The translations under genes were made by a program, and so were the position numbers. Under the pieces are notes generated by a model. It did not search any database and was not told the origin of the DNA. It saw only the letters and a list, made by a program, of their open reading frames with translations. Shown here in pieces: positions 654 to 25,664 of a stretch of DNA of 64,000 bases. Within the stretch, counting starts at the first letter, position 1, and every line of letters starts with the position of its first letter. The stretch is from Candidatus Poriferihabitaceae bacterium. GTDB taxonomy: Bacteria > Pseudomonadota > Gammaproteobacteria > Arenicellales > Poriferihabitantaceae. The stretch is taken from contig OZ244914.1 of assembly GCA_965221795.1 (NCBI GenBank), forward strand, positions 2,112,974-2,176,973, given 5' to 3'.

Positions 654-1904
654 TCAGGTAGCGGAACGGAAGGGCTGCACTTCGACCCAGTCCCCCGGAG
701 TCGCGCCATCCGATTCATCCGGGAGGATAATGTAACAGTTAGCGGCGCTCATGGAATGCAGGATGCCGGAACCCTGATCCCCGGTAGAGTGAACAACGGT
801 TCGACCTTCGGCATCCTGCCTCAGAATACCGCGCTGATATTCCATGCGGCCCGGCCGTTTCCGCAGTTTGGACTGGGTAGGGACCCGAATGCGCAGTTCT
901 CCCGATGATATCTCGCCTGACATCTTTTGCAGTGCTGCCCGGACAAAAATCTCAAACGTCACCATGACTGATACTGGATTGCCTGGCAAGCCAAAGAAAA
1001 CGGCATCGCCCACGATGCCGAAAGACAAGGGACGCCCGGGCTTGATGGCGACCTTCCAGAACATGACCTCGCCCAGCTTGGCCAAGGTATCCTGGACATA
1101 ATCTGCTTCGCCGACCGAAGCGCCGGCCGAGGTGATGATCATATCGGCACAACCGCTCGCCGCTTTGAATGCTTGGCGGATTGCGACTGGATCATCCCGC
1201 ACAATCCCGAGATCGACCATCTCTACGCCGGACTCGCTAAGCATGCCGTACAAGGTGTAGCGGTTGGAGTCATACAGTTCCCCGACTTCAATGGGTTCGC
1301 CCACGGAGCGCAATTCATCTCCATTCGAGAAGAATGCTACCCTGGGTCGACGAAAAACCGGCAATTCGGAGAACCCCAAGGAAGCAGCCAGCCCAAGGTG
1401 GGAAGGCCCTATCCGGATGCCCATTGGCAGGGCGATATCGCCGACATTCAGGTCTTCTCCGGCTAGGCGCACATTGGCCCCTGCTTTTTCTTGGGAAGAG
1501 ATCCGAACGGCATTTCCTTCCAGGGTGACCCGCTCCTGCATCACTACCGTATCGGTGCCGGCTGGCATCACCGCCCCCGTCATGATGCGCACGCACTGTG
1601 CGCTGCTCACCGGCTCCCGGAAAGGCTTGCCGGCAAATGCTGTGCCAATCACATGGAACATGCGTTCTCCACTGTCTGGCAATGCACTGCCTTTGAGGGC
1701 ATACCCGTCCATGGCCGAATTGGTATGGTTTGGCACCGGTACCCGACTGGGCACATTCCGGGCGATGACGCGCCCAAGCGCCTGGCGCAGGCCGACACTT
1801 TCGATCTGAGTCACCGGCTCAATCGCGGGCATGATCCGTTCCATGGCAGTCGTGGTGCGGATTGATGACGGGTCAAAATCACAGTTTGGATCTAGTGGCT
1901 TCAT
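654..1904 (-). CDS. moeA: Molybdopterin molybdotransferase (gephyrin-like Glp)
   Basis: SAMDGYA, RIMTGA, FSNGDEL, GLPGNPVS and C-terminal GDQGSGILHSM motifs. Confidence 0.95.
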   Translation of the reverse strand: MKPLDPNCDFDPSSIRTTTAMERIMPAIEPVTQIESVGLRQALGRVIARNVPSRVPVPNHTNSAMDGYALKGSALPDSGERMFHVIGTAFAGKPFREPVSSAQCVRIMTGAVMPAGTDTVVMQERVTLEGNAVRISSQEKAGANVRLAGEDLNVGDIALPMGIRIGPSHLGLAASLGFSELPVFRRPRVAFFSNGDELRSVGEPIEVGELYDSNRYTLYGMLSESGVEMVDLGIVRDDPVAIRQAFKAASGCADMIITSAGASVGEADYVQDTLAKLGEVMFWKVAIKPGRPLSFGIVGDAVFFGLPGNPVSVMVTFEIFVRAALQKMSGEISSGELRIRVPTQSKLRKRPGRMEYQRGILRQDAEGRTVVHSTGDQGSGILHSMSAANCYIILPDESDGATPGDWVEVQPFRSAT

Positions 1905-1922
1905 TTTTGTCCTTTGGGCCCT

Positions 1923-2444
1923 CTAGGATAAGGGCCGGTTCCAGTTACCGGACTGCCCCCCGGATTTGTGCACCAGACGAATGCCCCCTATTTCCATGCC
2001 TCGATCAATCGCCTTGCACATATCGTAGATTGTCAAGAGCGCAGTCTGGACACCCGTCAGAGCCTCCATCTCCACTCCGGTACGTTCCAAAGTTTCGGTA
2101 GTGACGTTGCAGAAAACTTGATTGGCTTTCGATTCGATTGTCAGCGCGAGATCAATCCGAGTCAACATGATTGGATGGCATAGCGGGATGAGCTCGGCCG
2201 TTTTTTTGGCAGCCATGATTCCCGCCACCCGGGCGACAGCAAGCACATCTCCTTTCTTGTGGTTTCCGGCTGCAATCAGTGCCAGGGTTTCCTGCCGCAT
2301 GCGGATATGGCCTTCGGCCACGGCCCGTCGTCGCGTGACGGCCTTGGCACCCACGTCCACCATATGGACATCTCCCGTTTCGTTGAAATGAGTAAGGGTC
2401 TTGTCGTTTGGCACGTCGGAAATGGAATGGGATTGGAGTTGCAT
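1923..2444 (-). CDS. moaC: Cyclic pyranopterin monophosphate synthase
   Basis: [41 protein letters not shown] motifs; exact start uncertain. Confidence 0.95.
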
Positions 2445-2497
2445 GTGCTATTGTAAGGTGAAACAGAATCCCATAGGTCATCTATACGCAAATCGCC

Positions 2498-3667
2498 ATG
2501 CCGGATCACAGTATCGTCTTTTCTATTTTTCTGATCTTTTCCGGTGCCGCATTTTTAGCAACAGTGACACTGTACCTGCGTCAGGCCATGCTCATTGCCT
2601 ATCTGGTTCTGGGCGCCTTGCTCGGTCCCTGGGGCCTTGGCCTAGTCACGGACGCAGATCTGATTCAGGACATTGCTCGGATTGGGATCATTTTTCTCCT
2701 GTTCCTATTGGGACTGAATCTGTCCCCGCAAAAATTGCTGCACCTGCTGCGTGAAACCATCTGGGTCACGCTGATTTCTTCGTTGGTCTTCAGTATATCG
2801 GCTGGCGGCATCGCCTGGCTGTTTGGTTTTGGCTGGATTGATACGTTGGTGATCGGAATATCAGCCGCATTTTCCAGCACCATCATCGGTCTCAAACTGC
2901 TGCCGACCACCGTATTGCATCACCGCCACGCCGGGGAGGTGATCATCAGTGTGCTGTTGTTGCAGGACCTGATCGCCATCATTGCTATGCTGGTGCTTCA
3001 AGGCATGGGCAAGGGGAATCTCCCACTAGCCGAAGTCGCCTTGCTGTTCGTAGCCCTCCCGGCGTTGGTCGTGGGAGCCTGGCTTGGCCAGAAATGGGTG
3101 CTGATTCCTCTCTTTTCCCGATTCGACCGAATTCAGGAATATGTTTTCCTATTGACTATCGGCTGGTGTCTGGCGATTGCCCAGTTGGCAGAGTCGTTGG
3201 GACTCTCCTATGAAATCGGTGCATTCATCGCTGGCGTGGCGATTGCCACATCCCCCATGGCTCTCTATATTGCAGAGAGTTTGAAATCTCTCCGGGATTT
3301 CTTTCTGGTGATGTTCTTTTTCGGAATCGGTGCCGGATTTGATCTGCAGGCCGCTGCGGGAGTGTTGGTGCCTGCAAGTCTGATTGGCGTGGGACTGTTG
3401 CTGCTGAAGCCGGTGGTTTTTCGTTTTGCCCTGGTGGGTCAGTCCGAGTCCAGTCGCCTTGCTTGGGAAACCGGTGTCCGATTGGGGCAGATGAGTGAGT
3501 TTTCCCTACTGATCGTTTTTGTGGCGGCCAGCCATGGACTGATCAGCGAAGATGCTTCGCTGCTGGTGCAGGTTGCTACTGTAATTAGTTTTGTGTTCTC
3601 GGCTTGGTATATTGTCCTGCGCTATCCGACACCCATCGCTGTGAATGAGAAGCTCCGGCGGGATTGA
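2498..3667 (+). CDS. CPA2-family cation:proton antiporter (KefC-like, no KTN domain)
   Basis: 389 aa highly hydrophobic; FSST.I.LK, LLLQDL, GAFIAG, LRDFFL.MFF, GQMSEFS motifs. Confidence 0.9.
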   Translation: MPDHSIVFSIFLIFSGAAFLATVTLYLRQAMLIAYLVLGALLGPWGLGLVTDADLIQDIARIGIIFLLFLLGLNLSPQKLLHLLRETIWVTLISSLVFSISAGGIAWLFGFGWIDTLVIGISAAFSSTIIGLKLLPTTVLHHRHAGEVIISVLLLQDLIAIIAMLVLQGMGKGNLPLAEVALLFVALPALVVGAWLGQKWVLIPLFSRFDRIQEYVFLLTIGWCLAIAQLAESLGLSYEIGAFIAGVAIATSPMALYIAESLKSLRDFFLVMFFFGIGAGFDLQAAAGVLVPASLIGVGLLLLKPVVFRFALVGQSESSRLAWETGVRLGQMSEFSLLIVFVAASHGLISEDASLLVQVATVISFVFSAWYIVLRYPTPIAVNEKLRRD

Positions 3668-4087: not shown

Positions 4088-5164
4088 ATGAATGCATCTT
4101 CTGATTCTTCGGCACCGCCTGTTTTCGTTACCGGTGCAACTGGACATGTGGGTGCCAATCTTGTCCATCGCCTTCTTAACGAAGGCAAAAAAGTTCGGGT
4201 CCTGCTGAGAAGGGGAAGCAACCATGCCGCAATGGAAGGCCTTGAGGTTGAGCGCGTCTATGGCGACCTTCGGGACCTGCAGTCCACCCGGACCGCCATG
4301 GAGGGTTGCCAAGGGGTCTATCACGTAGCGGCTAAGATTTCCACGATTGATGGCAATCGCGCCTATCGCCGCGAATTATATGAATGCAATGTTCTTGGTA
4401 CCCGTAATATACTTCAGGCTGCGCGGGAATGCGAAGCCGGCCGGGTAGTGGTGACGGGCTCTTTCAGCGCGGTCGGTTACGACTTGGATAACCCGTCTGT
4501 ACCAAGCGATGAAACCATGCAGTTCTTTCCTATGGAGCGCACGATGCCGTATGAACGCAGCAAGGCCTTTGTCGAGCATGAGTGCTGGCGTGCTGTTGTC
4601 AAGGGACAGGATGTGATTGTCGCTACCTGCTGTGCCGTGGTTGGAGGCTGGGATTATTTTCCCTCCCGATTAGGAAGAACCATGTGCGACTATACTGACG
4701 GCAAGCTTCGGGCCTATGTCGATGGCGGCTTCGAGTTCGTCGCTGCACGGGATATTGTGGAAGGGCATTTGCTTTGCATGGAGAAAGGACGTTCTGGCGA
4801 AAAGTACATTTTCAGTAGTGAGTATAAAACCATCTCTGAAATCCTGGATCTGTATGAAGAAGTGTCGGGGATCCCTCGTCCGGGGAAACGGATTCCGAGC
4901 CAAATAATGCTCGCATTTTCCGAGGTAGCGAGCGCCTACCTAAGTCGTTTTCATCCTACTTTTCCCCAGCGATTCACGCCCGGTGCCATTCGCCTGCTGC
5001 GATTGTGTCGTCACGCGAATACGTCCAAGGCGAGGCAGGAACTGGGTTATCAACCGACCACTATCCGAGCGGCGGTGCAGGAGGCCTATTCGTTTCATTA
5101 CCATCACCGTCATGCCATCACCAATCCACAAGCCAAACCTCCCAGCGAGGACATCGCGAAGTAA
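4088..5164 (+). CDS. NAD-dependent epimerase/dehydratase, 3beta-hydroxysteroid dehydrogenase-like (candidate SdmB)
   Basis: Extended SDR: VFVTGATGHVG, NVLGTRN, catalytic YERSK; first gene of the sterol operon. Confidence 0.85.
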   Translation: MNASSDSSAPPVFVTGATGHVGANLVHRLLNEGKKVRVLLRRGSNHAAMEGLEVERVYGDLRDLQSTRTAMEGCQGVYHVAAKISTIDGNRAYRRELYECNVLGTRNILQAARECEAGRVVVTGSFSAVGYDLDNPSVPSDETMQFFPMERTMPYERSKAFVEHECWRAVVKGQDVIVATCCAVVGGWDYFPSRLGRTMCDYTDGKLRAYVDGGFEFVAARDIVEGHLLCMEKGRSGEKYIFSSEYKTISEILDLYEEVSGIPRPGKRIPSQIMLAFSEVASAYLSRFHPTFPQRFTPGAIRLLRLCRHANTSKARQELGYQPTTIRAAVQEAYSFHYHHRHAITNPQAKPPSEDIAK

Positions 5165-5222
5165 TGTGTAAAAGTTAAGCATTAAGAGTTCTTTTCAATG
5201 CCCACCTGTCAACTATTGCCGA

Positions 5223-6332
5223 ATGAAGATGAATGTAAATTCGAGACTGGATGGCCCCCCTGTATTTGAGGAGGCCAACAACCTGCGCCAGAAAGTGCGT
5301 GCCACGGGCCTCGACCCCGATTATTGGTATGCAGTAGAAGAAGTAGGTAATATCAAGCCGGGAGGTGTCACTGAAGTCATTTTCTGGAAACACTCCATCG
5401 CACTGTATCGTTCTGCAGACGGCTCGTTTCATGCCCTCGAAAATCGTTGTGCACATCGTCAGGTCAAACTCTCTCTGGGCGATGTCGAAGGCTGTCAACT
5501 GGTGTGCCCGTACCATGGCTGGTCATATGATGAAACCGGCCGCCGGGCCGATAACCGGAAGGAGGGGGATGACGGGTCGCTGATCAAGCCTTCTATCAAA
5601 AGCTATCCGGTGCAGGTCCGTTATGGCCTGGTCTGGTTGTTTCCGGGCAACCCAGAGCGTGCGCAAGAGCGGCAAATCCCGGATATTCCTGAACTGGAAG
5701 GACGGAATCGTTGGGCCTGCGTCCCTCTCAGTTTCACCTGGTCGGCTCATCACTCAATGATTATTGACAACGTGAGCGATTTCACCCATGCTCACCTGCA
5801 CCGTCGATATCGACCCTTCGACGGCGCTACCCTTACCCATAGTGAAACCATTGGCGATAATGTCCATCTGTCCTACGATACTCAGGTTGGGCGCGGGCCA
5901 ATCTCCGGACGGTTCGTCGATCACAAGAAGCTGAACACCAATCGCATGGAGCTTTGCTACCAGTATCCTTATCAATGGTCGAATACCGATGATGCCATCA
6001 AGCATTGGCTGTTCGTGTTGCCGATCAATGAGCGGACTACCCGGGTCTTCTTCATGTTCTACTTCAAATCATTGAAGATCCCCTTCATTCCGATCAAAAT
6101 CCCCCGTTTTGCGATGACCGGGATTATGACCATATCCAACCGCCTTCTCATCGCACCCTTGCTGGATCAGGACCGATATGCCGTGGAGGCGGAGCAGGAG
6201 GGTTACGAGAAGTATTGGGATGCCCGTCCCATCGAATTCAACCCGGTCGTGAAGTCGTTCCAGGAAGTGACGGTGCGGAAATGGCAGGAATTCCTGGAGC
6301 GAGAAAACGGGGGCCGCGTTGCTGTCGACTGA
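5223..6332 (+). CDS. Rieske non-heme iron oxygenase (candidate sterol C-4 demethylase SdmA)
   Basis: Rieske ligands CAH...CPYH; mononuclear iron motif DNVSDFTHAHLH; operon context. Confidence 0.88.
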   Translation: MKMNVNSRLDGPPVFEEANNLRQKVRATGLDPDYWYAVEEVGNIKPGGVTEVIFWKHSIALYRSADGSFHALENRCAHRQVKLSLGDVEGCQLVCPYHGWSYDETGRRADNRKEGDDGSLIKPSIKSYPVQVRYGLVWLFPGNPERAQERQIPDIPELEGRNRWACVPLSFTWSAHHSMIIDNVSDFTHAHLHRRYRPFDGATLTHSETIGDNVHLSYDTQVGRGPISGRFVDHKKLNTNRMELCYQYPYQWSNTDDAIKHWLFVLPINERTTRVFFMFYFKSLKIPFIPIKIPRFAMTGIMTISNRLLIAPLLDQDRYAVEAEQEGYEKYWDARPIEFNPVVKSFQEVTVRKWQEFLERENGGRVAVD

Positions 6333-6339
6333 CCTCCAC

Positions 6340-7437
6340 ATGCCCTGGTCGTCCATGCTATCAGCCTCTGCCTTGCTGGAGGCTACTGCCATGATCGTGG
6401 CCTTTTTCGGGTTCCTGTTTGTGGGCTCAATGATCCTCCCGGGGCGTCGGATTGAGGGAGGGGAAGCAGAAGGGAAGGTAATCACCTACAAGCTCAATGG
6501 GCTCGCCTTGTTTCTGGCTACTGCAGCGTTTATGTCGCTTGTCCAGTTTTTCGGTTGGTTTTCCCTGTCCGCCTTATACACCCACTTTGGGGCACTTTTC
6601 GTAGTGGTCAATGTGGTCTCCTTTGCCCTTTCTGGCTGGCTGTATTGGAAAGGTATCCGGGACCGGGGCGCGTCGCCTGGATCCCCTGGGGTGTGGCGAG
6701 GATTTTTCTACGGTGTGGAACTCAATCCGAGTGCTTTTGGGGTGGATCTGAAGTTGTACAGTTATCGTCCCTCTCTGATCGGCCTGGCTCTGTTAAATGC
6801 TTCATTTGCGGTCGTGCAGTATGAGACCTATGGTTACCTGACCTTGGCCATGATTCTCTATCAGGCGTTTACTTTTCTGTATGTGCTTAACTATTTCCAG
6901 TTCGAGTATGGAATGATCCATACTTGGGATATTGTCAGCGAGCGCTTTGGATGGATGCTGGTCTGGGGCGATTATGTTCTCGTGCCGTTTTTCTACTGTA
7001 TTCCAGGTTGGTGGCTGGTGAATGCATCCGAATCGGTACCGCTGTCTCCGGTATCGGCCACGCTGATCATTCTTCTATTTGTGTTCGGCTTTTGGGTTTT
7101 TCGAGGCACCAATGGGCAAAAGCATCGCTTCAAGTCTGATCCGAACACCCGGATTTGGGGACGCCCGGCCCAGTCCTTGGATGGTCGTCTATTGGTTTCC
7201 GGGTTCTGGGGGATCGGCCGGCATCTTAACTACACGGGCGAAATCTGTGTCTATCTTTCCTTTGCCCTGACGACTGGATTCGCTTCCTGGATCCCGTACC
7301 TGTTACCTGCCTGGCTCGCCAGTCTGTTATGGCATCGTTCCCGGCGGGATGAACGTCGCTGTCATGCCAAATACGGGGAGTTGTGGGAGCGTTACACAAA
7401 GCGTGTTCGCTACCGGATGTTGCCTTTGATCTACTAA
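6340..7437 (+). CDS. ERG4/ERG24-family sterol reductase (probably Delta14)
   Basis: FFYGVELNP, D....FGWML.WGD...VPF.Y, NGQKHRF, LLVSGFWG..RH.NYTGE, DE.RC..KYG..W..Y...V.Y...P.IY; ATG at 6340 chosen over TTG 6319. Confidence 0.9.
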   Translation: MPWSSMLSASALLEATAMIVAFFGFLFVGSMILPGRRIEGGEAEGKVITYKLNGLALFLATAAFMSLVQFFGWFSLSALYTHFGALFVVVNVVSFALSGWLYWKGIRDRGASPGSPGVWRGFFYGVELNPSAFGVDLKLYSYRPSLIGLALLNASFAVVQYETYGYLTLAMILYQAFTFLYVLNYFQFEYGMIHTWDIVSERFGWMLVWGDYVLVPFFYCIPGWWLVNASESVPLSPVSATLIILLFVFGFWVFRGTNGQKHRFKSDPNTRIWGRPAQSLDGRLLVSGFWGIGRHLNYTGEICVYLSFALTTGFASWIPYLLPAWLASLLWHRSRRDERRCHAKYGELWERYTKRVRYRMLPLIY

Positions 7438-7449
7438 GCCGCCTGGATT

Positions 7450-8850
7450 ATGACTGCACAATCCCAAAATTCGATTGATCCTGGACCAGATGTAGTCGCC
7501 CCCCGTCTGAGCGGGGGTTGGCCGTTGGTGGGCCATTTGCCGAGTTTTCTGAAAGATCCGGTCTCACTGTTGCAGCGCGGCTGGCAGGAAAAGGGGGATT
7601 TATATCGTTTTCGACTCGGCCCACGTGATTTTGCCCTGTTTACTGGACCCGAGGCCCATGACTTCTATTTCAGGATGCCAGAAGAGGAATTGAACGCCAA
7701 GGCGGTATACCAGTTCACGGTGCCGATCTTCGGGCGTGGTGTGGCATACGATGTCGCCCCCGAACTGATGGCGGAACAGCTGGGATTCCTGTTCCCGGCA
7801 CTTCGTGATTCGTCCATGCGCCGGTTTGCCAAAATCATGTTTGCCGAGGCTTCGCGGTTTGCCGACTCTCTCGGCACTGAAGGAGAAATCGACCTGCCGT
7901 ATGCGATGAATGAACTGACTGTCCGAATTGCCAGTCATTGTCTCATTGGAGACGAGGTCCGCAATCAAGTCGATTCCGGATTTGCTGAAGCCTATCATGA
8001 ACTGCAAAATGGGATCAATACGCTGGGATTCTTCTTTCCCAAACTGCCTACTGCGGGCCATCGCTCCCGCGATCGTGCCCGGAAAAAAATTGCCGAGATC
8101 TTCGGCCAGGTGATGGCCAAACGCCGACGTTCTGGTATCAAGGGAGAAGATTTCATGCAGACCCTGATGGACGCTTGTTACCAGGACGGTCGGTCGTTGA
8201 GCGACGAGGAGATTACCGGTATTCTCGTGACTGTGTTGTTCGCGGGTCAGCATACCAGTGCGATACTCGGAACCTGGACCGCTCTGGAACTGCTGCGAGA
8301 TGCTGCGTACGTGGCCCGGGTGAGAGAGGAAGTGGAAAGTCTCTATTCTGAAACCGGCACCATGGATCTGGATGGTCTGAAGCGACAGGTTACCCTGGAG
8401 TATGCGGTCAGGGAAGGCGAACGATTACACCCCCCCTTGATTATACTGATTCGCAAGGTGCTCAGCCCCTTGCAGTATGGCAGCTATACGTTGCCGGTCG
8501 GTACCTTAGCCATGGTCTCGCCGGCCGTCTCCCACCGGTTGCCCCATATCTTTTCTGATCCGGATCGTTTTTTTCCGGATCGGTTTGCGCCACCTGCTAG
8601 CGAAGACAAAAAGCACCACTACACCCTGATCGGCTTTGGCGGTGGCAAACATCGTTGCATGGGGAAGAATTTTGCCATTATGCAGTTGAAAGTGATTCTG
8701 GCGGTGTTGTTTGAGCGCTTTGATTTTCGTCTCAATGCTGCCTTTCCCTCCCCGAACTATGGTAGTTGGGTGACTGGCCCCCGGGAGCCCTGCCGACTCC
8801 ATTATCGTCGACGCCCAAATGCGGGGGTATTCCAACCTGTATCGTCATGA
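7450..8850 (+). CDS. cyp51: Sterol 14alpha-demethylase, cytochrome P450 CYP51
   Basis: CYP51 signatures Y.FTVPIFG.GV.YD and I-helix FAGQHTS; EGERLHPP; heme motif FGGGKHRC. Confidence 0.9.
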   Translation: MTAQSQNSIDPGPDVVAPRLSGGWPLVGHLPSFLKDPVSLLQRGWQEKGDLYRFRLGPRDFALFTGPEAHDFYFRMPEEELNAKAVYQFTVPIFGRGVAYDVAPELMAEQLGFLFPALRDSSMRRFAKIMFAEASRFADSLGTEGEIDLPYAMNELTVRIASHCLIGDEVRNQVDSGFAEAYHELQNGINTLGFFFPKLPTAGHRSRDRARKKIAEIFGQVMAKRRRSGIKGEDFMQTLMDACYQDGRSLSDEEITGILVTVLFAGQHTSAILGTWTALELLRDAAYVARVREEVESLYSETGTMDLDGLKRQVTLEYAVREGERLHPPLIILIRKVLSPLQYGSYTLPVGTLAMVSPAVSHRLPHIFSDPDRFFPDRFAPPASEDKKHHYTLIGFGGGKHRCMGKNFAIMQLKVILAVLFERFDFRLNAAFPSPNYGSWVTGPREPCRLHYRRRPNAGVFQPVSS

Positions 8851-11800
8851 GTCAACGCTACGATATCGCTATTGTGGGGGCGGGTCCAGTCGGTAGTGTC
8901 TGCGCCTTGGCCCATGCACAAAAGGGTGCCCGGGTGGCTTTGCTCGAAGCCAATCCCAAGTCCGCCTTGCGGCTAGCCGGGGAATGGCTGCATCCGCCGG
9001 CCGTAAAGATATTGCGCAGCCTCGGGGTTGACCTTCCCCCATCGTGTTCACAGGCCACCGGGAAAGGGTTTGCCATCTTTCCAGAAGATAGTACCGAGCC
9101 CATTACCTTTCCTTACCCAAACGGCAGCCTAGGATTCACATGCGAACATTCTGCGCTGGTGGAAAGTCTCCGTAAGACTGTCAGCAGCAATCCAAATATT
9201 GAATTTCTTGTCGGTGCACGTGCATCCACGATTGAGGATGGGTGTATCGAGTATGCGCATGATGGAGCCAGTAGAACGATCCAGGCTGCTCGAATCGTCG
9301 GGGCCGATGGCCAAGCCTCTGTCGTTCGCCAGTCGTTGGGCCTGTCGGTCACTCCGAAGATCTGTTCGCAGACGGTGGGCGTCCTGTTGAGCCATGAGGT
9401 GCAGTTATCGCTGGAGGGGTATGGGTATGTGATACTTGGTGGCCCGGGCCCGATTCTCCTTTATCGGCTGGCAAGTGGTGTGGTCAGACTGATTGCCGAT
9501 ATTCCGCTGAATCGTACGACCCCCAAGGACCGAGTGGCTTTTTTACTGGACTCGTATACCGACCTATTGCCGGATTCCCTCCAGTCTGCGTTTGTCCAGG
9601 CGTTGCGATTACGGCAATTCCAGGTTGCGATCAATAAACTGAGGCCACATGTCACTTACGGCAGCTCCCATCGAGTCCTCATTGGCGATGCAGCCGGGCA
9701 TTATCATCCTATGACTGCGATGGGAATGACCTTCGGATTCGGTGATGCATTTTCCTTGGCCGAAACGGAACGTTTTGATGACTTTGTTGCGCAACGTTTT
9801 CGGGAGACTCACACCCCATCTTTTCTTGCCATGGGGCTCTACGAGGTCTTTGCCGACTATCGGGCCGAAGCAGTCGCGATCCGGCATGCCATCTATCAGA
9901 GGGCCCGGGCCAGTTCAGTGTTCCGGGATCGAACCATCCGCTTGCTGGCCTGTGAAGATACCTCGCCCGCCCGCATGGGGGTCGCGTTTTTCGGTACGGT
10001 GATTCGTGCGTTGATGGCCCAGGTCCCGAGGTCCCTGGACTGGCTGGCGTGGCAAAAATCCTGGCACACCCTACAGGCCATGATTACTCGCATTGGATGG
10101 CTGTTACAAAGTATGCGGCGACTGTACCGGATCAAATACCGGAGTGGGGCAATGGATGAGCAAGCCTGGAGTACGCTGTCGAGGGTCTTCCCACACTCTA
10201 TGCCATGGAAATCGGACACATCCAAACCCAATCACTCGAAGAGTAACCCGTCCCCAGATGCGAGACCGGCATTGCAATCTGCGATCCGCCAGTTGCTGGA
10301 AGTGCAGAATAAAGATGGCTCCTGGGAGGGGGAGATGGTCTGGTGTCCCATGCTGACAGCCCAGTATGTGCTGCTGCATCACATCATCGAACGGCCCCTT
10401 CAGCCTGACCGGTGCCGGCATGTGCTGCGATCCTTCGAACAGACCCGTCTCGCGGATGGCACCTGGGGCATGCATGAACACTCACCGCCTCACCTGTTCG
10501 TGACCACATTGGTGTATGTTGCGGCCCGGTTACTCGGGGTCGGGAGAGATGATCCATTGCTGGAACCAGCCCGACGTTTCCTGCATGCGGAGGGCGTAGT
10601 CAATATCCCGAGTTGGGGCAAATTCTGGCTGGCTATTCTCAATCTATACGACTGGCGTGGTGTGAATGCCATTCTTCCAGAGTTGTGGGTGCTGCCCCGT
10701 TGGTTGGCCATCCACCCCTCGAACTGGTATTGCCATACCCGGCTGATTTACATGGCGATGTCCGTGGTCTATGCGCACCGGTTTCAGGTACCGGTTACGC
10801 CGGTGGTCGAGTCGTTACGGCAAGAACTGTTTCCGGCCGGTTTCACCCGTGTTGATTTTACCCATGCCCGCAATGCGCTACGGGACGGCGATCTTTTCGC
10901 ACGTCCGGGCAAAATGTTGCGGGTTGGGTATGCGCTGGCACGAGGGTTTGAACGATATGGTGGCAAGGGCCTACGCCCCCAATGTGTGAAAGCTATCACC
11001 GAGCGTATCCATTGGGAGTTGAAAAGCAGTAGCCACACCTGTATATCCCCAGTCAGCGGCACACTGAATCTCCTCGCCTTATGGCTACAGGATCCAGACG
11101 ATGTGGATTTCCTGCAAGGGCTGGAACGGCTGGAGGGCTGGATCTGGGAGGACAGCGCACAGGGTGCCCGGGTCACCGGTGCCAGAAGTGCTTCATGGGA
11201 TACCGGATTTGCCTTGCAGGCCCTGGCGACCGTAGCGGGTTTTGATGGTGTGCGCGATGCTATGAAAAAAGGGGCTGATTTTCTCTTCCAGCAACAAATT
11301 CGCCACAGCTTTGAGGGATTCGCCCATGCATTTCGCAATGACCCCCAAGGCGGCTGGTGTTTTGCAGGAGGGTGGCATGGATGGCCAGTGACGGATTGCA
11401 CAGCGGAAGCAGTACTGGGGCTGATCAATGTGCATGGAAAAGCCGTTGATCGCTCCGTACTGAACGAAGCGATTCAATTCATGTTGCGCGGGCAAAATAG
11501 AGATGGCAGTTTTGGCAGCTATGAGGCGCGACGTTCCGCACTGGGTCTTGAGTGGCTGAATCCGGCCGAGATGTTTGGCGAATCAATGACAGAAGGATCC
11601 TACGTCGAATGCACTGCATCGTGTCTTGCCGCCTTTGCCGCTTGCAAGCGGCATTATCCCGATCTCATTCGGCAGACGGTCATGAAGTCGATTCTTCGGG
11701 CCGATGCTTGGCTGCGCCGTACTCAGCGGGCAGATGGTTCATGGCGTGGTGTATGGGGTGTGCAGTACATTTATGGTACCTTATTCGGAATTCGGGCTCT

Positions 11801-12341
11801 ATTGGCCGCAGGGGCCCACCCGAGTGATACCGCATTGCGCTTGGCTTGTCGCTGGCTATTGGACCGCCAGCACAGCGACGGAGGGTGGGGTGAGCATCAC
11901 AGCGGTTGTCTTTCCGGCCAATATGTCGACCATGACGAAAGTCAGGTGATTCAGACTGCATGGGCGCTGATCGCACTGCTGGAAGCGAAGGATTCGAGCT
12001 GGCATGCCATTTCCAAAGGAGCACAATATCTGCTGGATACTCAGAAAGCGGATGGAACTTGGCCCAAGCAAGACATGGCTGGGGTATTTTTCCGCACGGC
12101 CCTGTTGGACTATGTTCTGTATCGACAGTATTTTCCTCTGCATGCACTCGGTCTCTATGAGCAGCATCGCCAGATACGCTTGAATTTGACGAACACCGCG
12201 ATTCTGGATGATAACGTGAAACCGGCCGAAGCCGAATCTTCGTTGCCCTTGATCCCGCTTCATCCACCTTTGACTCCGAATCCGCCATCGCCTGAAGCTG
12301 CTCCCGGAACTGGTTCAGGGAATTACGCTTCTCTAGGATAA
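8847..12341 (+). CDS. Squalene epoxidase - oxidosqualene cyclase fusion (1164 aa)
   Basis: N-half: IVGAGPVG, RLAGEWLHP, LIGDAAGHYHPMTAMGMT (SE/Erg1-like). C-half: QW repeats, IPSWGKFWL, WYCHTRLIY, catalytic DCTAE, GVQYIYGT, GGWGE. ATG overlaps the cyp51 stop (ATGA at 8847-8850). Confidence 0.92.
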   Translation: MSQRYDIAIVGAGPVGSVCALAHAQKGARVALLEANPKSALRLAGEWLHPPAVKILRSLGVDLPPSCSQATGKGFAIFPEDSTEPITFPYPNGSLGFTCEHSALVESLRKTVSSNPNIEFLVGARASTIEDGCIEYAHDGASRTIQAARIVGADGQASVVRQSLGLSVTPKICSQTVGVLLSHEVQLSLEGYGYVILGGPGPILLYRLASGVVRLIADIPLNRTTPKDRVAFLLDSYTDLLPDSLQSAFVQALRLRQFQVAINKLRPHVTYGSSHRVLIGDAAGHYHPMTAMGMTFGFGDAFSLAETERFDDFVAQRFRETHTPSFLAMGLYEVFADYRAEAVAIRHAIYQRARASSVFRDRTIRLLACEDTSPARMGVAFFGTVIRALMAQVPRSLDWLAWQKSWHTLQAMITRIGWLLQSMRRLYRIKYRSGAMDEQAWSTLSRVFPHSMPWKSDTSKPNHSKSNPSPDARPALQSAIRQLLEVQNKDGSWEGEMVWCPMLTAQYVLLHHIIERPLQPDRCRHVLRSFEQTRLADGTWGMHEHSPPHLFVTTLVYVAARLLGVGRDDPLLEPARRFLHAEGVVNIPSWGKFWLAILNLYDWRGVNAILPELWVLPRWLAIHPSNWYCHTRLIYMAMSVVYAHRFQVPVTPVVESLRQELFPAGFTRVDFTHARNALRDGDLFARPGKMLRVGYALARGFERYGGKGLRPQCVKAITERIHWELKSSSHTCISPVSGTLNLLALWLQDPDDVDFLQGLERLEGWIWEDSAQGARVTGARSASWDTGFALQALATVAGFDGVRDAMKKGADFLFQQQIRHSFEGFAHAFRNDPQGGWCFAGGWHGWPVTDCTAEAVLGLINVHGKAVDRSVLNEAIQFMLRGQNRDGSFGSYEARRSALGLEWLNPAEMFGESMTEGSYVECTASCLAAFAACKRHYPDLIRQTVMKSILRADAWLRRTQRADGSWRGVWGVQYIYGTLFGIRALLAAGAHPSDTALRLACRWLLDRQHSDGGWGEHHSGCLSGQYVDHDESQVIQTAWALIALLEAKDSSWHAISKGAQYLLDTQKADGTWPKQDMAGVFFRTALLDYVLYRQYFPLHALGLYEQHRQIRLNLTNTAILDDNVKPAEAESSLPLIPLHPPLTPNPPSPEAAPGTGSGNYASLG

Positions 12342-12828: not shown

Positions 12829-13647
12829 CTACCGTACTCGTTTTAGCGCTGTTTGGGTAAAGTCCCTATCATCCAGATCAGTACCAAACTCGTAGTCGGA
12901 CCATTCCAGCACGGTGCTCTTTCCCGTCAGGTGATTTTCCATGGTGATTGTACTGGCCCGCCAAAAACGATCCAGGTACTTCCGATAATCCTTCACCGTC
13001 ATGGTTTTCAAATGTACTTCCCCGCGGTCGAAAAACTGAATTTGTATGGTCCGGAGCTCTTCTTGATCCAGCCAAACTAACTGACGGGTATATCCAGAGT
13101 CTTCACTCAAGGGAATACGCTCCAGGACGATACACTCGAGATCTCCGCAGGATTCCTCGCGCAGGTGTCGGTGCACAAATTTTTCGACCTCCACCGCCCC
13201 CATGTCCTCATAGGAAAATTCGCTGCCCATGAAGGAACCGGACTGGTTTGAGGAACTGATGGCCTTGACTCGCCTCAGGGCAGGAAGGTAGAGCCACTGG
13301 TCATCTGGAGAATCTTTATGGGCATGGACGAGAAAAGCAGTCCCCCTGACATCCCGTGGACGATCGAATACAAACAGGGTTCGGTCGCCGTCGTTATCGA
13401 CCTCCATGACCTTGATCCGCACTTCGCGTTTGCTTTCCTGCCCCTGCTTGTTGCGCAGAATCATATCCAGGTTTGCTGTGAAATTACTGAAACCCTTCTG
13501 GCGTTCACGGGCCTCAGTGGCAATCCGAAGCCCCAACTCCTCGACACTCTCCGCGCGACCGAGAGATGAATTGGTCATCCAAACAACAACAGCAAGGAGT
13601 GCTACAGACCAAGTCAACATTGGTCGAGGAAAACTCACACACATCAT
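12829..13647 (-). CDS. LolA-like outer-membrane lipoprotein-sorting family protein (secreted)
   Basis: Signal-peptide-like N-terminus; F..P.DVRGTAFL, DDQWLYLPALRRVK.I, SFMGSEFSYED motifs; the longer ORF in the track runs in from the IS. Confidence 0.8.
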   Translation of the reverse strand: MMCVSFPRPMLTWSVALLAVVVWMTNSSLGRAESVEELGLRIATEARERQKGFSNFTANLDMILRNKQGQESKREVRIKVMEVDNDGDRTLFVFDRPRDVRGTAFLVHAHKDSPDDQWLYLPALRRVKAISSSNQSGSFMGSEFSYEDMGAVEVEKFVHRHLREESCGDLECIVLERIPLSEDSGYTRQLVWLDQEELRTIQIQFFDRGEVHLKTMTVKDYRKYLDRFWRASTITMENHLTGKSTVLEWSDYEFGTDLDDRDFTQTALKRVR

Positions 13648-13749
13648 GGCTGTTTCTTTCTGCAGGTGTTCACAATCAAAATCAGTAAGCGAGATCAATG
13701 TCACAACTGTAGACTTTGGATATCGCCTTGCGAGTAGCATTTTATCATA

Positions 13750-15102
13750 CCCCGGGACCAGTCCGAAGTGCAACCGCGCCGCGATCCCGGAATGAGGGCG
13801 TAGCCCGAAGGGAGGGGTCGCGGCGGCGACCCAAAAATCCGCGCTGCGAGTGCTTCTTTTCGGCCCCGGATGGCAACCATCTCGACTCCAAGCGATCCTG
13901 ACCGAAGCCATTGACCAAGGCAAAGGCGAGTTCGGGACCTGAAGGCCGAGTGAAGCCGCTCCGGTGCATCACCGGAGGGCCCGGAGTGCCGGGGCGATGG
14001 GGGACCGTGGGCCGCGTCAGGGGGGAGCCAGACCACGGGCAAAGACCTCTGCCGGGGTACGAACCCCCGGGGCCTTCCGAGGCCGACGGTGGAGCCGGTC
14101 CTCCACCGCCCGCACCGGTGCCGCGGTCACCTGGCGGAAGTCGGTGCCCTTCGGGAAGTACGGGCGCACCCGGCCGTTGGTATGCTCGTTCCGGCCCCGT
14201 TCCCAGGAATGGTAGGGAGTGGCGAAGTAGAAGCCTGCGCCCAACGCCGCAGCGATCTCCCGGTGCTTTGCGAACTCCTTGCCGTGGTCCGCCGTGCCGA
14301 TGTGGACCCGGTCCCGAACCGGACCCATGCGCCGGGTGATCGCCTCGGTGCCCTGCGGCGGCCGTCTTGCCTTCGACCCACGCCAGGAACCGGAACTTCG
14401 AGCCCCGGTCCACTGCCGACACCAAGGCACCCCGGTGCCTCGCTCCCATGATCGGTTCCCGCTCCCAGTCCCCGATCCGGCACTGCTCCTCAACCACTGC
14501 CGGCCGCTCCGCAAGGTCCACCCAATCGGGAATGTGACCGCGTCCGGCAGAGCGGCCGCCGCGCCCATTCGGCTTCTGGCCCCGACGTCGCCGGCACCGG
14601 TACAGGATCCCTCCGGCCTGCCGATCCGTCCGCACCTGCGGGTAGATCCACTCCTGGCCCGCCATCCCTTCGCCCGGCAACCGAACCCAGCCCGCGATCT
14701 GCTCCGGGCTCCATCCTTCCTGCAACCGTCCTGCCGCGACCACCCAGCGCTCCGGTGTCCTCTTCCAGGGCACCGCCGAAGCCTCCTGACGACGGGCCGT
14801 CGCCTTGCCGTCGGCCTGCGGGTGCCGGTCGCCCCGCAGGCCGCGGTGGCGCGAGGTCTCCCGCGAGATCGTCCCGGGGTCCCGTCCGAGATCGCGGGCC
14901 ATCTCCGGTTTCGACCACCCCCGATGCAACCGGGCGTGAATCTGGCATCGTTCGGCATGGGTCAGGGGGTGGTAGTCTACGGGCATGGCAATTCTCCGTT
15001 CGTGATCAACCGAGATGGTTCGCCATCCTCTGGCCCACCGCAAGCTTTTCACCTCACGAGCCAGCGGCTTAGGGGGTGTTGCACTTCACACTGGAACGGG
15101 GG
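13750..15102 (-). mobile_element. IS30-family element copy 1, frameshifted transposase
   Basis: 25-bp imperfect TIRs (CCCCGGGACCAGTCCGAAGTGCAAC / CCCCCGTTCCAGTGTGAAGTGCAAC); 3-bp TSD ATA (13747-49, 15103-05); IS30 motifs YHPLT..ER..I, WSPEQIAG, GDWE, DHGKEF, PYHSWERG.NEHTNG..R.YFPKG split across frames. Confidence 0.9.
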
Positions 15103-15907
15103 ATACGATTATCAGTTCCGGATAGCACTGTAGAAGCCATGCCAATTTTGGAAGTTAGAGGGCAAGGCGGGAAATAGACCCTGCGGAGATGATAAGAGGG
15201 CGGGGCCTGATCGAGATTAGGCAAGCAGTGGTCCCAAGAGAGGCGGTGGCGGAATGGAACCGGTCGATTCGCGATCTTTTGCGTGGCTGGGTGCTAGGGT
15301 CGACCGGACCTTACAGAGCCGGAATCGCGAGGGAGATGCGGAAGCTCTCCGCTCCTGCTTTCAAGTCGAAGAACCCTGCCAATCATGTCCGGCCATCATT
15401 GTGAGGATACGGCCGCACCTGCTGGGAAATTGCGCCCCGGACACCGCTCGGCAGGCGAATCCGCTTCTTCCTCTTCCTGGATGCCATGCTTACAGGCTCA
15501 TCGGGAAATTTCATGTTGCGTTCCTCAGTTGTGCAGCGGGAGAAGCATGATGGGTGAGGCGGCACAGGTTCTTCGGATATGACTGCAGCACAATCTTGTG
15601 TTGCCGCGCCACAAGAAGTGGCCGTTGCGGTGGCGCTACGGCTCTGGCAGCCATGCGCCGTCAGGACGCCACAGGCAAGCGTCCATTCGATGCCCTGCGA
15701 GAGGTGCTCAGAGGGATGGAACCCAAGAAATACGATCTGGATTGGCTCGAGTGCCCGCACTGTCCAGCACCTATTTGGGCGTTCATAATTGATGGGTTCG
15801 GCTGACGTCTTTAACGGGGCAGACGGCTGCCGCAGGGAGCACCGCCTGTGCAAATGACTTGGCGTGACCACTCCATGAAAGTGGTTCGGTGGTAAAATCG
15901 CACTGCC

Positions 15908-17320: not shown

Positions 17321-17360
17321 TGGGCCAGACGCGATCAATGCGGCGATGCGCTGCCCATGC

Positions 17361-17475
17361 CTACAACTCACCCTCCTCCTTGAGCATATTGAGGGAGCGG
17401 GTGAAGGCGGCGACAGTGGCATTGATCTCGGTTTCGCCGTGGGTGGCGGAAAATTTTACTGCCCGGATAGCGAGT
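17361..17475 (-). pseudogene. Possible C-terminal remnant of a class III (HemL-like) aminotransferase
   Basis: Minus strand reads ..FSATHGETEINATVAAFTRSLNMLKEEGEL*, resembling the S.aH...di..t helix; upstream frame broken. Confidence 0.25.
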
Positions 17476-17754
17476 CAGATCCAAGCCGTTCACATTCATC
17501 GCGAGCCTGAGCTGGTGCGCCGCGCAGGGTATTGCCCTTCAGCTCCTGATAGCTGCAGGCGAAGGGGTCGAATGACTCCGGTGAAACATCATCTCTGCCT
17601 GTAGCCTTCGGTTCCGCCTGCGCTTGGCCGCCGCCGTGGCCGCTTCCTGCGCTGCCGCCCAGCCCGAACGGGGAGCCCCGACCATGAGCGACCAGATAAA
17701 GTCCACCTAGCCCGGCGCGTCCGTGCCTCCAGACCGCGCACGGTCAGCTGTCGG

Positions 17755-18051
17755 GTGCCGCCGGAGAACCCCGACCCCATCGGCCTTCATGTCCTGACGT
17801 GCGAGTTTGTTACCGGCTTCGATGCCGTTCGCCTGCGGTCAGGCAGTTGGTATGTCCGGTACTACCACGCCAAGCTCTTCAAGCCGTACCGGCACCTACC
17901 TCGGCACCTTCTTGAATGTTGGTTCCTGCCGCCGTACCGCCCGCCGCTCGTGCTGGTGGAGCGGGTCTGGAAACGGGCGCGACGGCTCGCGACCCACAAC
18001 CTCCACACCGACCGCTTGAAGGAACTCCGTGCACCGCGGAATCCGGCCTAA
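17755..18051 (+). pseudogene. IS630-family transposase C-terminal remnant
   Basis: YYHAKL..., WFLPPYRPPL..VERVWK.ARR.ATHN resembles the IS630 DDE motif LPPYSP.LNPIE..W. Confidence 0.6.
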
Positions 18052-25601: not shown

Positions 25602-25664
25602 GAGGAAAAGCGGTTATCGGAATTCTCCGAAGATTTTCAACCGTATGAAGAACAGAGGTAGCTT

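What the first reader, a model, noticed from the sequence alone, without database searches (positions are those of the whole stretch)
4088..12341. Compact five-gene sterol biosynthesis operon in a gammaproteobacterial-type chromosome
Seen: five co-oriented, tightly spaced genes (gaps 58, 7 and 12 bp, then a 4-bp overlap): 3beta-HSD-like SDR, Rieske oxygenase, ERG24-like reductase, CYP51 and SE-OSC. Known: these activities convert squalene to oxidosqualene, cyclise it, remove C-14 and reduce Delta14; the bacterial C-4 demethylase SdmA/SdmB of Methylococcus capsulatus is a Rieske plus NAD(P) reductase pair. Sterol synthesis is rare in bacteria. Inference: one transcript covers cyclisation through C-14 and C-4 demethylation, and the window shows no methanotroph or myxobacterial markers, so this may be an unrecognised sterol-making lineage.
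Basis: partly seen in the sequence, partly recalled or inferred. Interest (0 to 1): 0.92.

Follow-up and report, generated by a model that had tools for sequence, protein, structure and literature searches.

The report
Known sponge-symbiont sterol gene cassette
The five tightly packed sterol-making genes are real and intact. They are the sterol gene cassette already published for bacteria living inside marine sponges, found here in a new gammaproteobacterial symbiont genome, and not evidence of an unrecognised sterol-making lineage.

Summary
Five co-oriented genes lie at 4088-12341 with gaps of 58, 7 and 12 bp and then a 4-bp overlap. They encode an SdmB-like reductase, an SdmA-like Rieske oxygenase, a Delta14-sterol reductase, CYP51, and one protein fusing squalene epoxidase to oxidosqualene cyclase (SE-OSC).

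The claim of an unrecognised sterol-making lineage does not hold.
- The same order and content is published as the msbA-E locus of a Melophlus sponge symbiont (2020). It is also the 'cluster of steroid genes' found in 115 of 537 Ircinia sponge MAGs across 10 phyla (2022).
- 62 of the 80 best public loci carry all five genes colinear, at 61-84% protein identity.
- The host is a closed 3.64-Mb genome of the sponge-associated family Candidatus Poriferihabitaceae (Arenicellales). Its copy groups with that family's copies.

This genome adds some context. Squalene synthase lies at a separate site. A sterol methyltransferase lies at another, clustered with an EBP-fold membrane protein, a flavoprotein and a GPP34-P450 fusion. 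In other symbionts these accessory genes usually flank the cassette. Within the family the pathway is patchy: 6 of 25 genomes have it, and two of those are decaying.

No expression or lipid data exist for the cassette. The product is therefore inferred.

The parts
4088..5164 (+). sdmB/msbA-like NAD(P)-dependent SDR (358 aa). Predicted C-4 decarboxylase and 3-ketoreductase partner of SdmA.
   Evidence: NF052578 SdmB at 334 bits is the best hit; HpnA is next at 237 bits. Epimerase and 3Beta_HSD Pfam domains. TGATGHVG Rossmann motif and YERSK catalytic motif. 74-84% identical in 70 of 80 related loci.
5223..6332 (+). sdmA/msbB-like Rieske non-haem iron oxygenase (369 aa). Predicted sterol C-4 methyl oxidase.
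   Evidence: NF052579 (4beta-methylsterol monooxygenase SdmA) at 395 bits; the next family scores 34 bits. Rieske and VanA_C domains. CAH...CPYH cluster ligands and a DNVSDFTHAHLH iron motif.
6340..7437 (+). msbC / ERG24-type Delta14-sterol reductase (365 aa from ATG 6340; 372 aa from TTG 6319).
   Evidence: PF01222 at 243 bits. 246 bits to 4QUV, the Delta14-sterol reductase of Methylomicrobium alcaliphilum. It is about 50-70 residues shorter at the N-terminus than 4QUV, as is the whole sponge-symbiont family (median 367 aa).
7450..8850 (+). msbD / CYP51 sterol 14alpha-demethylase (466 aa), without a fused ferredoxin.
   Evidence: The top 56 PDB hits are all CYP51. The best is 354 bits to 6MCW, the M. 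capsulatus CYP51-ferredoxin fusion; the first non-CYP51 hit scores 124 bits. CYP51 signatures VPIFGRGVAYD and AGQHTS, and haem ligand FGGGKHRCMG.
8847..12341 (+). msbE-type fusion protein (1164 aa). Squalene epoxidase spans about residues 1-420, a linker follows, and oxidosqualene cyclase spans about residues 470-1106. The C-terminal tail is low-complexity.
   Evidence: PF08491 and FAD_binding_3 at the N-terminus; SQHop_cyclase_N and _C at the C-terminus. TIGR03463 at 729 bits. 437 bits to human LSS 1W6K and 99 bits to human SQLE 6C6N. VTDCTAEA catalytic motif and GxGxxG FAD motif. More than 120 clusters at 90% identity share the same fused architecture.

Best explanation
This is an intact copy of the sterol core cassette that circulates among bacterial symbionts of marine sponges. 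It is published as msbABCDE and as the 'cluster of steroid genes'. Here it sits in the chromosome of a Candidatus Poriferihabitaceae gammaproteobacterium (order Arenicellales).

Inferred mechanism:
1. Squalene comes from the genome's single eukaryote-type squalene synthase, encoded about 1 Mb away.
2. The N-terminal flavoprotein domain of the fusion protein epoxidises squalene. The C-terminal domain cyclises the product, most likely to lanosterol.
3. CYP51 removes the 14alpha-methyl group, and the ERG24-type reductase saturates the resulting Delta14 bond.
4. The SdmA Rieske oxygenase and the SdmB reductase remove one or both C-4 methyl groups.
5. Genes at a second locus, about 1.3 Mb away, then tailor the product. 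They encode a C-24 sterol methyltransferase, an EBP-fold membrane protein (candidate Delta8-Delta7 isomerase), an amine-oxidase-type flavoprotein and a GPP34-P450 fusion.

What is shown: gene identities, motif integrity, synteny and distribution. What is inferred: co-transcription, the redox partners, the exact cyclisation product, how far C-4 demethylation goes, and the final sterol.

Evolution: the copy was probably inherited within the family after older transfers between symbiont phyla. The pathway has been lost or is decaying in most relatives.
For: Gene identities and motifs.

Same cassette elsewhere: 62 of 80 loci have all five genes colinear, with median identity of 64-77% per gene.

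Literature:
- PMC9531527 describes DFR, a hypothetical protein, ERG24, CYP51 and LSS in 115 of 537 MAGs from 10 phyla, with HGT and purifying selection.
- PMC10070321 reports sdmAB-containing clusters in sponge metagenomes and shows that their methyltransferases are active in vitro.

Taxonomy: same-genus genome G005 has the same length and coordinates as OZ241969.1, titled Ca. Poriferihabitaceae.

Tree: the window's copy sits in a clade with 100% SH-aLRT support together with Poriferihabitaceae and Arenicellales copies. Class labels need 12 changes on the tree, against a minimum of 10 and a shuffled mean of 36.5.

Divergence from the same-genus copy (71-84%) is similar to that of flanking housekeeping genes (75-83%).

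Pathway completeness: one SQS_PSY gene and one Sterol_MT_C gene in the genome.

Linkage of accessory genes: the own-genome accessory genes have homologues beside the cassette in other loci (SMT 59 of 80, EBP-fold protein 29, GPP34-P450 29, flavoprotein 19).

Co-occurrence: SE-OSC and SMT are both present in 6 and both absent in 19 of the 25 family genomes.

Composition: the operon's GC content (0.53-0.57) matches the genome's (0.555).
Against: - No sterol has been measured from any bacterium carrying this cassette. I found no report of heterologous expression of its core genes.
- No transcript data cover the locus.
- SdmA and SdmB score below NCBIfam's equivalog cut-offs (395 and 334 bits against 600).
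- No ferredoxin or reductase partner for CYP51 or SdmA is encoded in the operon.
- The cyclase carries Ala/His/Val at the three product-determining positions. This is neither the lanosterol (Thr/Cys-or-Gln/Val) nor the cycloartenol (Tyr/His/Ile) pattern, so the product is uncertain.
- Genome order within the genus is heavily rearranged. Vertical descent and re-acquisition therefore cannot be cleanly separated.
Confidence: 0.85

Rival explanations
1. The cassette makes the aglycone of a specialised triterpenoid natural product rather than a membrane sterol. An example is a 30-norlanostane saponin such as the sarasinosides proposed for the Melophlus msb locus. In that case SdmAB-like enzymes would act in other oxidative tailoring.
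For: PMC7074536 proposed exactly this for msbA-F, and suggested that MsbA/MsbB might install a C-23 oxo group. Two further P450s are encoded near sterol genes in this genome: window 15908-17320, and the GPP34-P450 fusion.
Against: No glycosyltransferase or other natural-product genes lie beside the operon in this window. The cassette occurs in hundreds of symbionts of many sponge genera that are not known for such saponins (PMC9531527). SdmA and SdmB are far closer to the C-4 demethylase models than to any other family.
Confidence: 0.1
2. The operon is a recent horizontal acquisition in this particular genome, carried on a mobile island, rather than a family heirloom.
For: The flanks are not syntenic with same-genus genomes. 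In relatives that have the operon it lies hundreds of kb from the KefB-MoaC-MoeA block that adjoins it here. In G004 KefB lies 2 kb from a gene that is 19 kb away here. IS30-like genes and a GC-rich (64%) segment lie just downstream. Published trees show HGT between classes (PMC9531527).
Against: The operon's GC content equals the genome's. No direct repeats, tRNA or other RNA genes, or integrase bound it. Its nearest relatives are copies from the same family and order. Its divergence from the same-genus copy matches that of housekeeping neighbours. The whole genus is heavily rearranged, so loss of synteny is not specific to this locus.
Confidence: 0.15
3. The cassette is a non-functional relic, or works only on host-derived intermediates rather than making sterol de novo.
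For: Two relatives show clear decay. In G008, CYP51 is in pieces and the SMT is in fragments. In G022, the C14-reductase survives as a fragment and the cyclase gene has an in-frame TGA. 19 of the 25 family genomes lack the pathway.
Against: Here all five ORFs are full length with every catalytic motif. The genome keeps squalene synthase and a sterol methyltransferase. Published omega values for the family are 0.13-0.26 (PMC9531527).
Confidence: 0.05

Closest known systems
msb locus (msbA-F) of the gammaproteobacterial symbiont of the sponge Melophlus sarasinorum (GenBank MT026193; Mohanty et al. 2020, PMC7074536)
   Same: The first five genes have the same order and content: NAD(P) oxidoreductase, Rieske oxygenase, sterol reductase, CYP51-type demethylase, and a bi-functional squalene epoxidase/cyclase. 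The host is also a gammaproteobacterial sponge symbiont, and squalene synthase is likewise encoded elsewhere.
   Different: In msb the methyltransferase msbF adjoins the cluster and msbA/msbB overlap. Here the methyltransferase lies 1.3 Mb away and sdmB/sdmA are 58 bp apart. I could not align the msb sequence directly because it is not in the collections I could read.
Clusters of steroid genes (CSGs) of Ircinia sponge symbiont MAGs (Kelly et al. 2022, PMC9531527)
   Same: The architecture is DFR (= SdmB-like), a hypothetical protein (= SdmA-like), ERG24, CYP51 and LSS. The three-gene core is about 5.9 kb there; here 6340-12341 is 6.0 kb. It spans many phyla, is under purifying selection and shows HGT. 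Many of my 80 related loci are MAGs from that study (JAJD-JAJE accessions).
   Different: That paper did not annotate SdmA/SdmB or the epoxidase domain of 'LSS'. SMT or FDFT1 usually flank the 3' end there. Here the 3' neighbour is a LolA-like gene followed by IS debris.
Methylococcus capsulatus sterol pathway (SdmA/SdmB, CYP51-ferredoxin fusion, Delta14-reductase, separate SQMO and OSC)
   Same: It has the same enzyme families for every step. CYP51 (6MCW) and the Delta14-reductase of a related methanotroph (4QUV) are the closest solved structures. C-4 demethylation uses a Rieske oxygenase plus an SDR rather than the eukaryotic ERG25/26/27.
   Different: In the methanotroph the epoxidase and cyclase are separate proteins (from my own knowledge), and CYP51 carries a C-terminal ferredoxin (PMC7947880; 6MCW chain 551 aa against 466 aa here). 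The methanotroph SdmAB remove only one methyl group. The window's SdmA/B fall below the equivalog cut-offs built on that group. The organism has no pmoA (that search had no positive control).

Membership tests
Sponge-symbiont sterol core cassette (msbABCDE / CSG) | Gene order SDR, Rieske, ERG24-type reductase, CYP51, fused SE-OSC, all on one strand and tightly spaced | tested here: met
   The same order occurs in 62 of 80 related loci. The order matches the text of PMC7074536 and PMC9531527.
Sponge-symbiont sterol core cassette (msbABCDE / CSG) | Sequence relatedness to cassette members from sponge MAGs | tested here: met
   61-84% amino-acid identity for all five proteins to loci from sponge-symbiont MAGs, including Ircinia MAGs of the Kelly study. 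The window's copy is nested inside the family tree.
Sponge-symbiont sterol core cassette (msbABCDE / CSG) | Host is a sponge-associated bacterium | tested here: inconclusive
   A same-genus genome is titled Candidatus Poriferihabitaceae, and all close relatives are sponge MAGs. The sample source of the window's own genome is coded in the run tables.
SdmA/SdmB bacterial sterol C-4 demethylase | Score above the NCBIfam equivalog cut-off (600 bits) | tested here: not met
   SdmA 395 bits and SdmB 334 bits. Both are by far the best-scoring families, so these are homologues outside the methanotroph-trained equivalog.
SdmA/SdmB bacterial sterol C-4 demethylase | Rieske [2Fe-2S] ligands plus a mononuclear iron motif in SdmA; Rossmann fold plus YxxxK in SdmB; the two genes adjacent | tested here: met
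   (motifs read from the translations).
SdmA/SdmB bacterial sterol C-4 demethylase | Removal of C-4 methyl group(s) from a 4,4-dimethylsterol | not testable with these tools
   Homologues remove one methyl group (methanotrophs), both (Calothrix), or need a third enzyme (Enhygromyxa) (PMC10202945). This genome has only one such pair.
CYP51 (sterol 14alpha-demethylase) | Full-length similarity to solved CYP51s well above that to other P450s, plus the B'-helix and I-helix signatures and the Cys haem ligand | tested here: met
   354 bits to 6MCW against 124 bits to the first non-CYP51. Motifs.
Oxidosqualene cyclase, lanosterol-synthase type | Catalytic Asp in the DCTAE motif, and QW repeats | tested here: met
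   The Asp-Cys pair is invariant in 81 of 81 fused homologues.
Oxidosqualene cyclase, lanosterol-synthase type | Thr381 / Cys-or-Gln449 / Val453 product triad (human numbering; recalled from the literature) | tested here: inconclusive
   Only Val453 matches. The other two positions are Ala and His, invariant in 81 of 81. The product needs an assay.
Delta14-sterol reductase (ERG24/TM7SF2/MaSR1) | ERG4_ERG24 domain with a conserved C-terminal NADPH-binding half | tested here: met
   243 bits to PF01222 (profile positions 72-432) and 246 bits to 4QUV, aligned through to the C-terminus. The N-terminus is about 50-70 residues shorter than in 4QUV.

The most novel reading that the evidence does not exclude
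This genome has a single SdmAB pair, one C-24 methyltransferase and no second ERG4/ERG24 reductase. If its SdmAB stop after one demethylation, as in methanotrophs, the symbiont would make 4alpha-methyl, 24-methyl(ene) sterols. After burial these would give 4-methyl-24-alkyl steranes, which are normally read as dinoflagellate or other eukaryotic biomarkers.

The invariant Ala/His/Val cyclase triad may also give a protosterol other than plain lanosterol.

The EBP-fold protein, which no Pfam or NCBIfam model recognises, would be a candidate bacterial Delta8-Delta7 isomerase.
Probability: 0.15. Interest if true: 0.6.

Novelty: new member of a known kind. Interest (0 to 1): 0.3.

Why it matters
Bacterial sterol synthesis in sponge symbionts bears on how sterane biomarkers are read, for example 24-isopropylcholestane as evidence for early sponges. 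It also bears on who makes the unusual sterols of sponges.

This copy adds no new principle. It does sit in a closed genome, so the full gene inventory can be read without binning doubt:
- the core operon;
- a single squalene synthase;
- a single sterol methyltransferase;
- an EBP-fold candidate isomerase;
- a flavoprotein and a GPP34-P450 fusion.

The family also shows intact, reduced and decaying versions side by side. That makes it a convenient natural series for asking what the pathway is for. The cassette remains biochemically untested, and that is the real gap.

Tried and rejected
- RNA evidence for a single transcript. No RNA run holds the locus, and three small metatranscriptomes of the same organism label laid nothing on it.
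- Consensus promoter and terminator scans. Counts were at or below the shuffled expectation, and there was no + strand promoter hit upstream of 4088. This is uninformative.
- Rfam scan of window 1-22000 for a riboswitch or other RNA. Nothing found.
- Repeat search for island boundaries around the operon. No direct repeats.
- Synteny-based definition of an insertion site. Same-genus genomes keep MoeA-MoaC-KefB but are so rearranged that no clean empty site could be shown.
- Methanotroph marker pmoA. None in the genome, but the search had no positive control.
- Assigning the second window P450 (15908-17320) and the GPP34-P450 fusion to a known sterol P450 family. PDB hits are generic.
- Sequence-profile search of the 244-aa membrane protein against the PDB gave nothing. 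Only the fold comparison pointed to EBP.
- Literature search for the family name Poriferihabitans. No paper found.
Full report
OBSERVATION

- 4088-5164, ATG start.
- 5223-6332, ATG start.
- 6340-7437, ATG start. An in-frame TTG at 6319 would overlap the previous gene by 14 bp.
- 7450-8850, ATG start.
- 8847-12341, with its ATG inside ATGA, so it overlaps the CYP51 stop by 4 bp.

The spacings of 58, 7 and 12 bp and the 4-bp overlap are exact.

GENE IDENTITIES

- Gene 1 is an extended SDR. Its best NCBIfam model is SdmB (334 bits); HpnA comes next at 237 bits.
- Gene 2 is a Rieske/VanA_C oxygenase. Its best model is SdmA, '4beta-methylsterol monooxygenase' (395 bits); the next family scores 34 bits.
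- Both genes 1 and 2 lie under the 600-bit equivalog cut-offs. I call them SdmAB homologues, not equivalogs.
- Gene 3 is an ERG4_ERG24 protein (243 bits). It scores 246 bits to the Delta14-sterol reductase structure 4QUV.
- Gene 4 is CYP51. The 56 best PDB matches are all CYP51, led by the Methylococcus capsulatus enzyme 6MCW at 354 bits. The first other P450 scores 124 bits. Unlike 6MCW, it has no fused ferredoxin.
- Gene 5 is a 1164-residue fusion. A squalene epoxidase domain (PF08491; 99 bits to human SQLE 6C6N) is followed by an oxidosqualene cyclase (TIGR03463, 729 bits; 437 bits to human lanosterol synthase 1W6K).

Reading the translations, every expected catalytic motif is present:
- the Rossmann motif and YxxxK in SdmB;
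- the CxH...CxxH cluster ligands and the iron-binding Asp/His motif in SdmA;
- the B'-helix and AGQHTS signatures and the Cys ligand in CYP51;
- GxGxxG in the epoxidase;
- VTDCTAEA and QW repeats in the cyclase.

IS THE ASSEMBLY SOUND?

- The window is part of a single closed contig of 3.64 Mb, rated 98% complete and 1.8% contaminated.
- An independent run from 2021, from another study, contains the operon and both of its junctions with only five base differences.
- The operon's GC content (0.53-0.57) equals the genome's (0.555).

It is not chimeric and not eukaryotic.

WHAT IT IS

A scan of one genome per prokaryotic species found 392 stretches encoding a relative of the fusion protein. The 80 best are 61-71% identical over the full length.

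They come from MAGs labelled Gammaproteobacteria (Candidatus Poriferihabitaceae, Porisulfidus, Rariloculaceae, Arenicellales), Alphaproteobacteria, Nitrospirales, Binatia, Acidimicrobiia, Acidobacteriota, Opitutales, Longimicrobiales and Nitrospinaceae. The names and isolate codes are those of sponge-microbiome projects.

Of the 80 loci:
- 62 have all five genes colinear within 6.5 kb.
- 7 have all five but with sdmAB moved nearby.
- 7 have only the fusion gene.

Median identity to the window's proteins is 77, 72, 73, 70 and 64% in gene order. A protein-database search found more than 120 clusters at 90% identity with the same fused architecture among the top hits. Where they carry a name, they are annotated 'FAD-dependent monooxygenase' or 'squalene-hopene cyclase'.

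LITERATURE

The cassette is published.
- Mohanty et al. 2020 (PMC7074536) described the msb locus of a gammaproteobacterial symbiont of Melophlus sarasinorum. [quoted passage not shown] Squalene synthase lies on another scaffold.
- Kelly et al. 2022 (PMC9531527) found 'clusters of steroid genes' in 115 of 537 Ircinia MAGs from 10 phyla: ERG24-CYP51-LSS, preceded by 'DFR' and a hypothetical protein. Gene trees indicated horizontal transfer, and omega was 0.13-0.26. The authors noted that the unannotated genes might be SdmA/SdmB.
- Brown et al. 2023 (PMC10070321) reported sdmAB-containing clusters in sponge metagenomes. They showed that the associated methyltransferases alkylate C-24 in vitro.

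Earlier follow-ups in this scan reached the same conclusion for the fusion gene in other genomes. I arrived at it independently.

I found no report of expression of the core five genes, and none of sterols measured from a bacterium carrying them.

WHOSE GENOME

A same-genus genome (G005) has the length and coordinates of OZ241969.1, titled Candidatus Poriferihabitaceae bacterium. NCBI places that family in Arenicellales, Gammaproteobacteria. The genome has no pmoA (that search had no positive control).

It is, however, a member of a group already known to carry the cassette.

EVOLUTION

In a maximum-likelihood tree of 81 fusion proteins, the window's copy sits in a clade with 100% SH-aLRT support together with Poriferihabitaceae and Arenicellales copies. 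Classes are almost monophyletic: 12 label changes, against a minimum of 10 and a shuffled mean of 36.5. The branches joining phyla are very short.

Together with the fixed gene order, this fits a few older transfers between symbiont lineages followed by descent within each.

Within the window's genus, only 5 of 13 species have the fusion gene. In the rest of the family one more has it, and in the sampled rest of the order one more. The same-genus copy is 71-84% identical. That is about as diverged as the neighbouring housekeeping genes MoeA, MoaC and KefB (75-83%). This favours inheritance plus repeated loss over a fresh acquisition.

Gene order in the genus is too scrambled to show an empty site. 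No repeats or RNA genes bound the operon.

REST OF THE PATHWAY IN THIS GENOME

- There is one SQS_PSY gene, closest to eukaryote-type squalene synthase, at 1.10 Mb.
- There is one gene with the sterol-methyltransferase C-terminal domain, at 0.80 Mb.
- There is no second cyclase and no second ERG4/ERG24 gene.

Next to the methyltransferase lie four further genes:
- a 2OG-Fe(II) oxygenase;
- a 244-245-residue membrane protein with no Pfam or NCBIfam match;
- an amine-oxidase-type flavoprotein;
- a GPP34-P450 fusion.

In other symbionts these same genes sit directly beside the cassette: the methyltransferase in 59 of 80 loci, the membrane protein in 29, the GPP34-P450 in 29 and the flavoprotein in 19. 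They therefore belong to the same functional set and have simply been separated here.

An AlphaFold model of the membrane protein (pLDDT 84, pTM 0.79) matches only human EBP, the sterol Delta8-Delta7 isomerase. The two hits have Foldseek probability 1.00 and TM-scores of 0.54-0.63 normalised by target length. All other hits are below 0.25. It is a candidate bacterial isomerase.

CO-OCCURRENCE AND DECAY

Across the 25 genomes of the family, the fusion gene and the methyltransferase are present together in 6 and absent together in 19. Two of the six are decaying:
- G008 has CYP51 in pieces, no strong ERG24 hit and fragmented methyltransferases.
- G022 has an ERG24 fragment and an in-frame TGA in the fusion gene.

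Three genomes keep only squalene synthase. Three same-genus genomes have a richer set, with two ERG4/ERG24 paralogues and two or three methyltransferases.

The window's genome is thus an intact but lean version.

MECHANISM AND ITS LIMITS

The inferred route is squalene, oxidosqualene, protosterol, 14-demethylation, Delta14 reduction and C-4 demethylation. C-24 methylation follows, and probably Delta8-Delta7 isomerisation.

Three points remain open.
1. The cyclase has Ala, His and Val at the three positions that separate lanosterol from cycloartenol synthases. This is invariant in all 81 fused proteins. Val points to lanosterol, as Mohanty et al. argued, but the triad is non-canonical.
2. SdmAB homologues remove one methyl group in methanotrophs and both in Calothrix, and need a third enzyme in Enhygromyxa (PMC10202945). 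This genome has one pair only.
3. No redox partner is encoded in the operon. Co-transcription is supported only by spacing, because no RNA data cover the locus.

VERDICT

The novelty claim is not.

This is a new, intact member of a published and very widespread sponge-symbiont cassette. Its value lies in the closed-genome inventory, the natural series of intact and decaying relatives, and the EBP-fold candidate. None of these has been tested at the bench.

Noticed in passing
Own genome G000 802692-803429 (+), outside the window; homologues e.g. L002:14901-15635: A conserved 244-aa membrane protein with no Pfam or NCBIfam hit sits beside the sterol methyltransferase. In 29 of 80 other loci it sits beside the sterol cassette. 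Its AlphaFold model (pLDDT 84) matches only human EBP, the sterol Delta8-Delta7 isomerase (Foldseek probability 1.00, TM-score 0.54-0.63 normalised by target). It is a candidate bacterial sterol isomerase.
   Followed up: partly
Own genome G000 799550-809545, outside the window: A second sterol-related cluster holds a 2OG-Fe(II) oxygenase, a C-24 sterol methyltransferase, the EBP-fold protein, an amine-oxidase-type flavoprotein (76-87% identical to full-length homologues in other symbionts) and a 695-aa GPP34-P450 fusion. In most other symbionts these genes flank the core cassette.
   Followed up: partly
window about 13750-13923, plus about 70 other places in the genome (e.g. window about 25434-25616 and 32132-32305): The first 60 or so codons of the long ORF 12829-13923 (-) match about 70 other genomic sites at 50-90% amino-acid identity. 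This is a dispersed repeat of about 180 bp (MITE/REP-like). The LolA-like domain covers only residues 180-362, so the true start of that gene is probably downstream of the repeat.
   Followed up: no
window 13745-18000: A GC-rich segment (64% against 55%) holds an HTH_38 (IS30-like) ORF at 13745-15052 (-) and an intact second P450 at 15908-17320 (+). The P450's closest solved relatives are generic eukaryote-type P450s. A 53%-identical homologue lies 4 kb from the fusion gene in a Nitrospinaceae locus (L045).
   Followed up: partly
window 12829-13923 (-): A LolA_like (PF17131) gene converges on the operon's end. Homologues (52-71% identity) lie within 10 kb of the cassette in 7 of 80 other loci. 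This is a weak hint of a lipid-carrier link.
   Followed up: no
L094 (G008:C1:196000-215999) and G022:C1:253220-257491: These are decaying versions of the cassette in relatives. In G008, CYP51 survives in three fragments upstream of an intact fusion gene, and the SMTs are fragmented. In G022, there is an ERG24 fragment and one in-frame TGA in the fusion gene.
   Followed up: partly
window 654-3667 compared with L089-L092: The MoeA-MoaC-KefB block is conserved in the genus but inverted here relative to the upstream neighbourhood in G011, G005 and G008. Genome order in this genus is extensively rearranged.
   Followed up: partly
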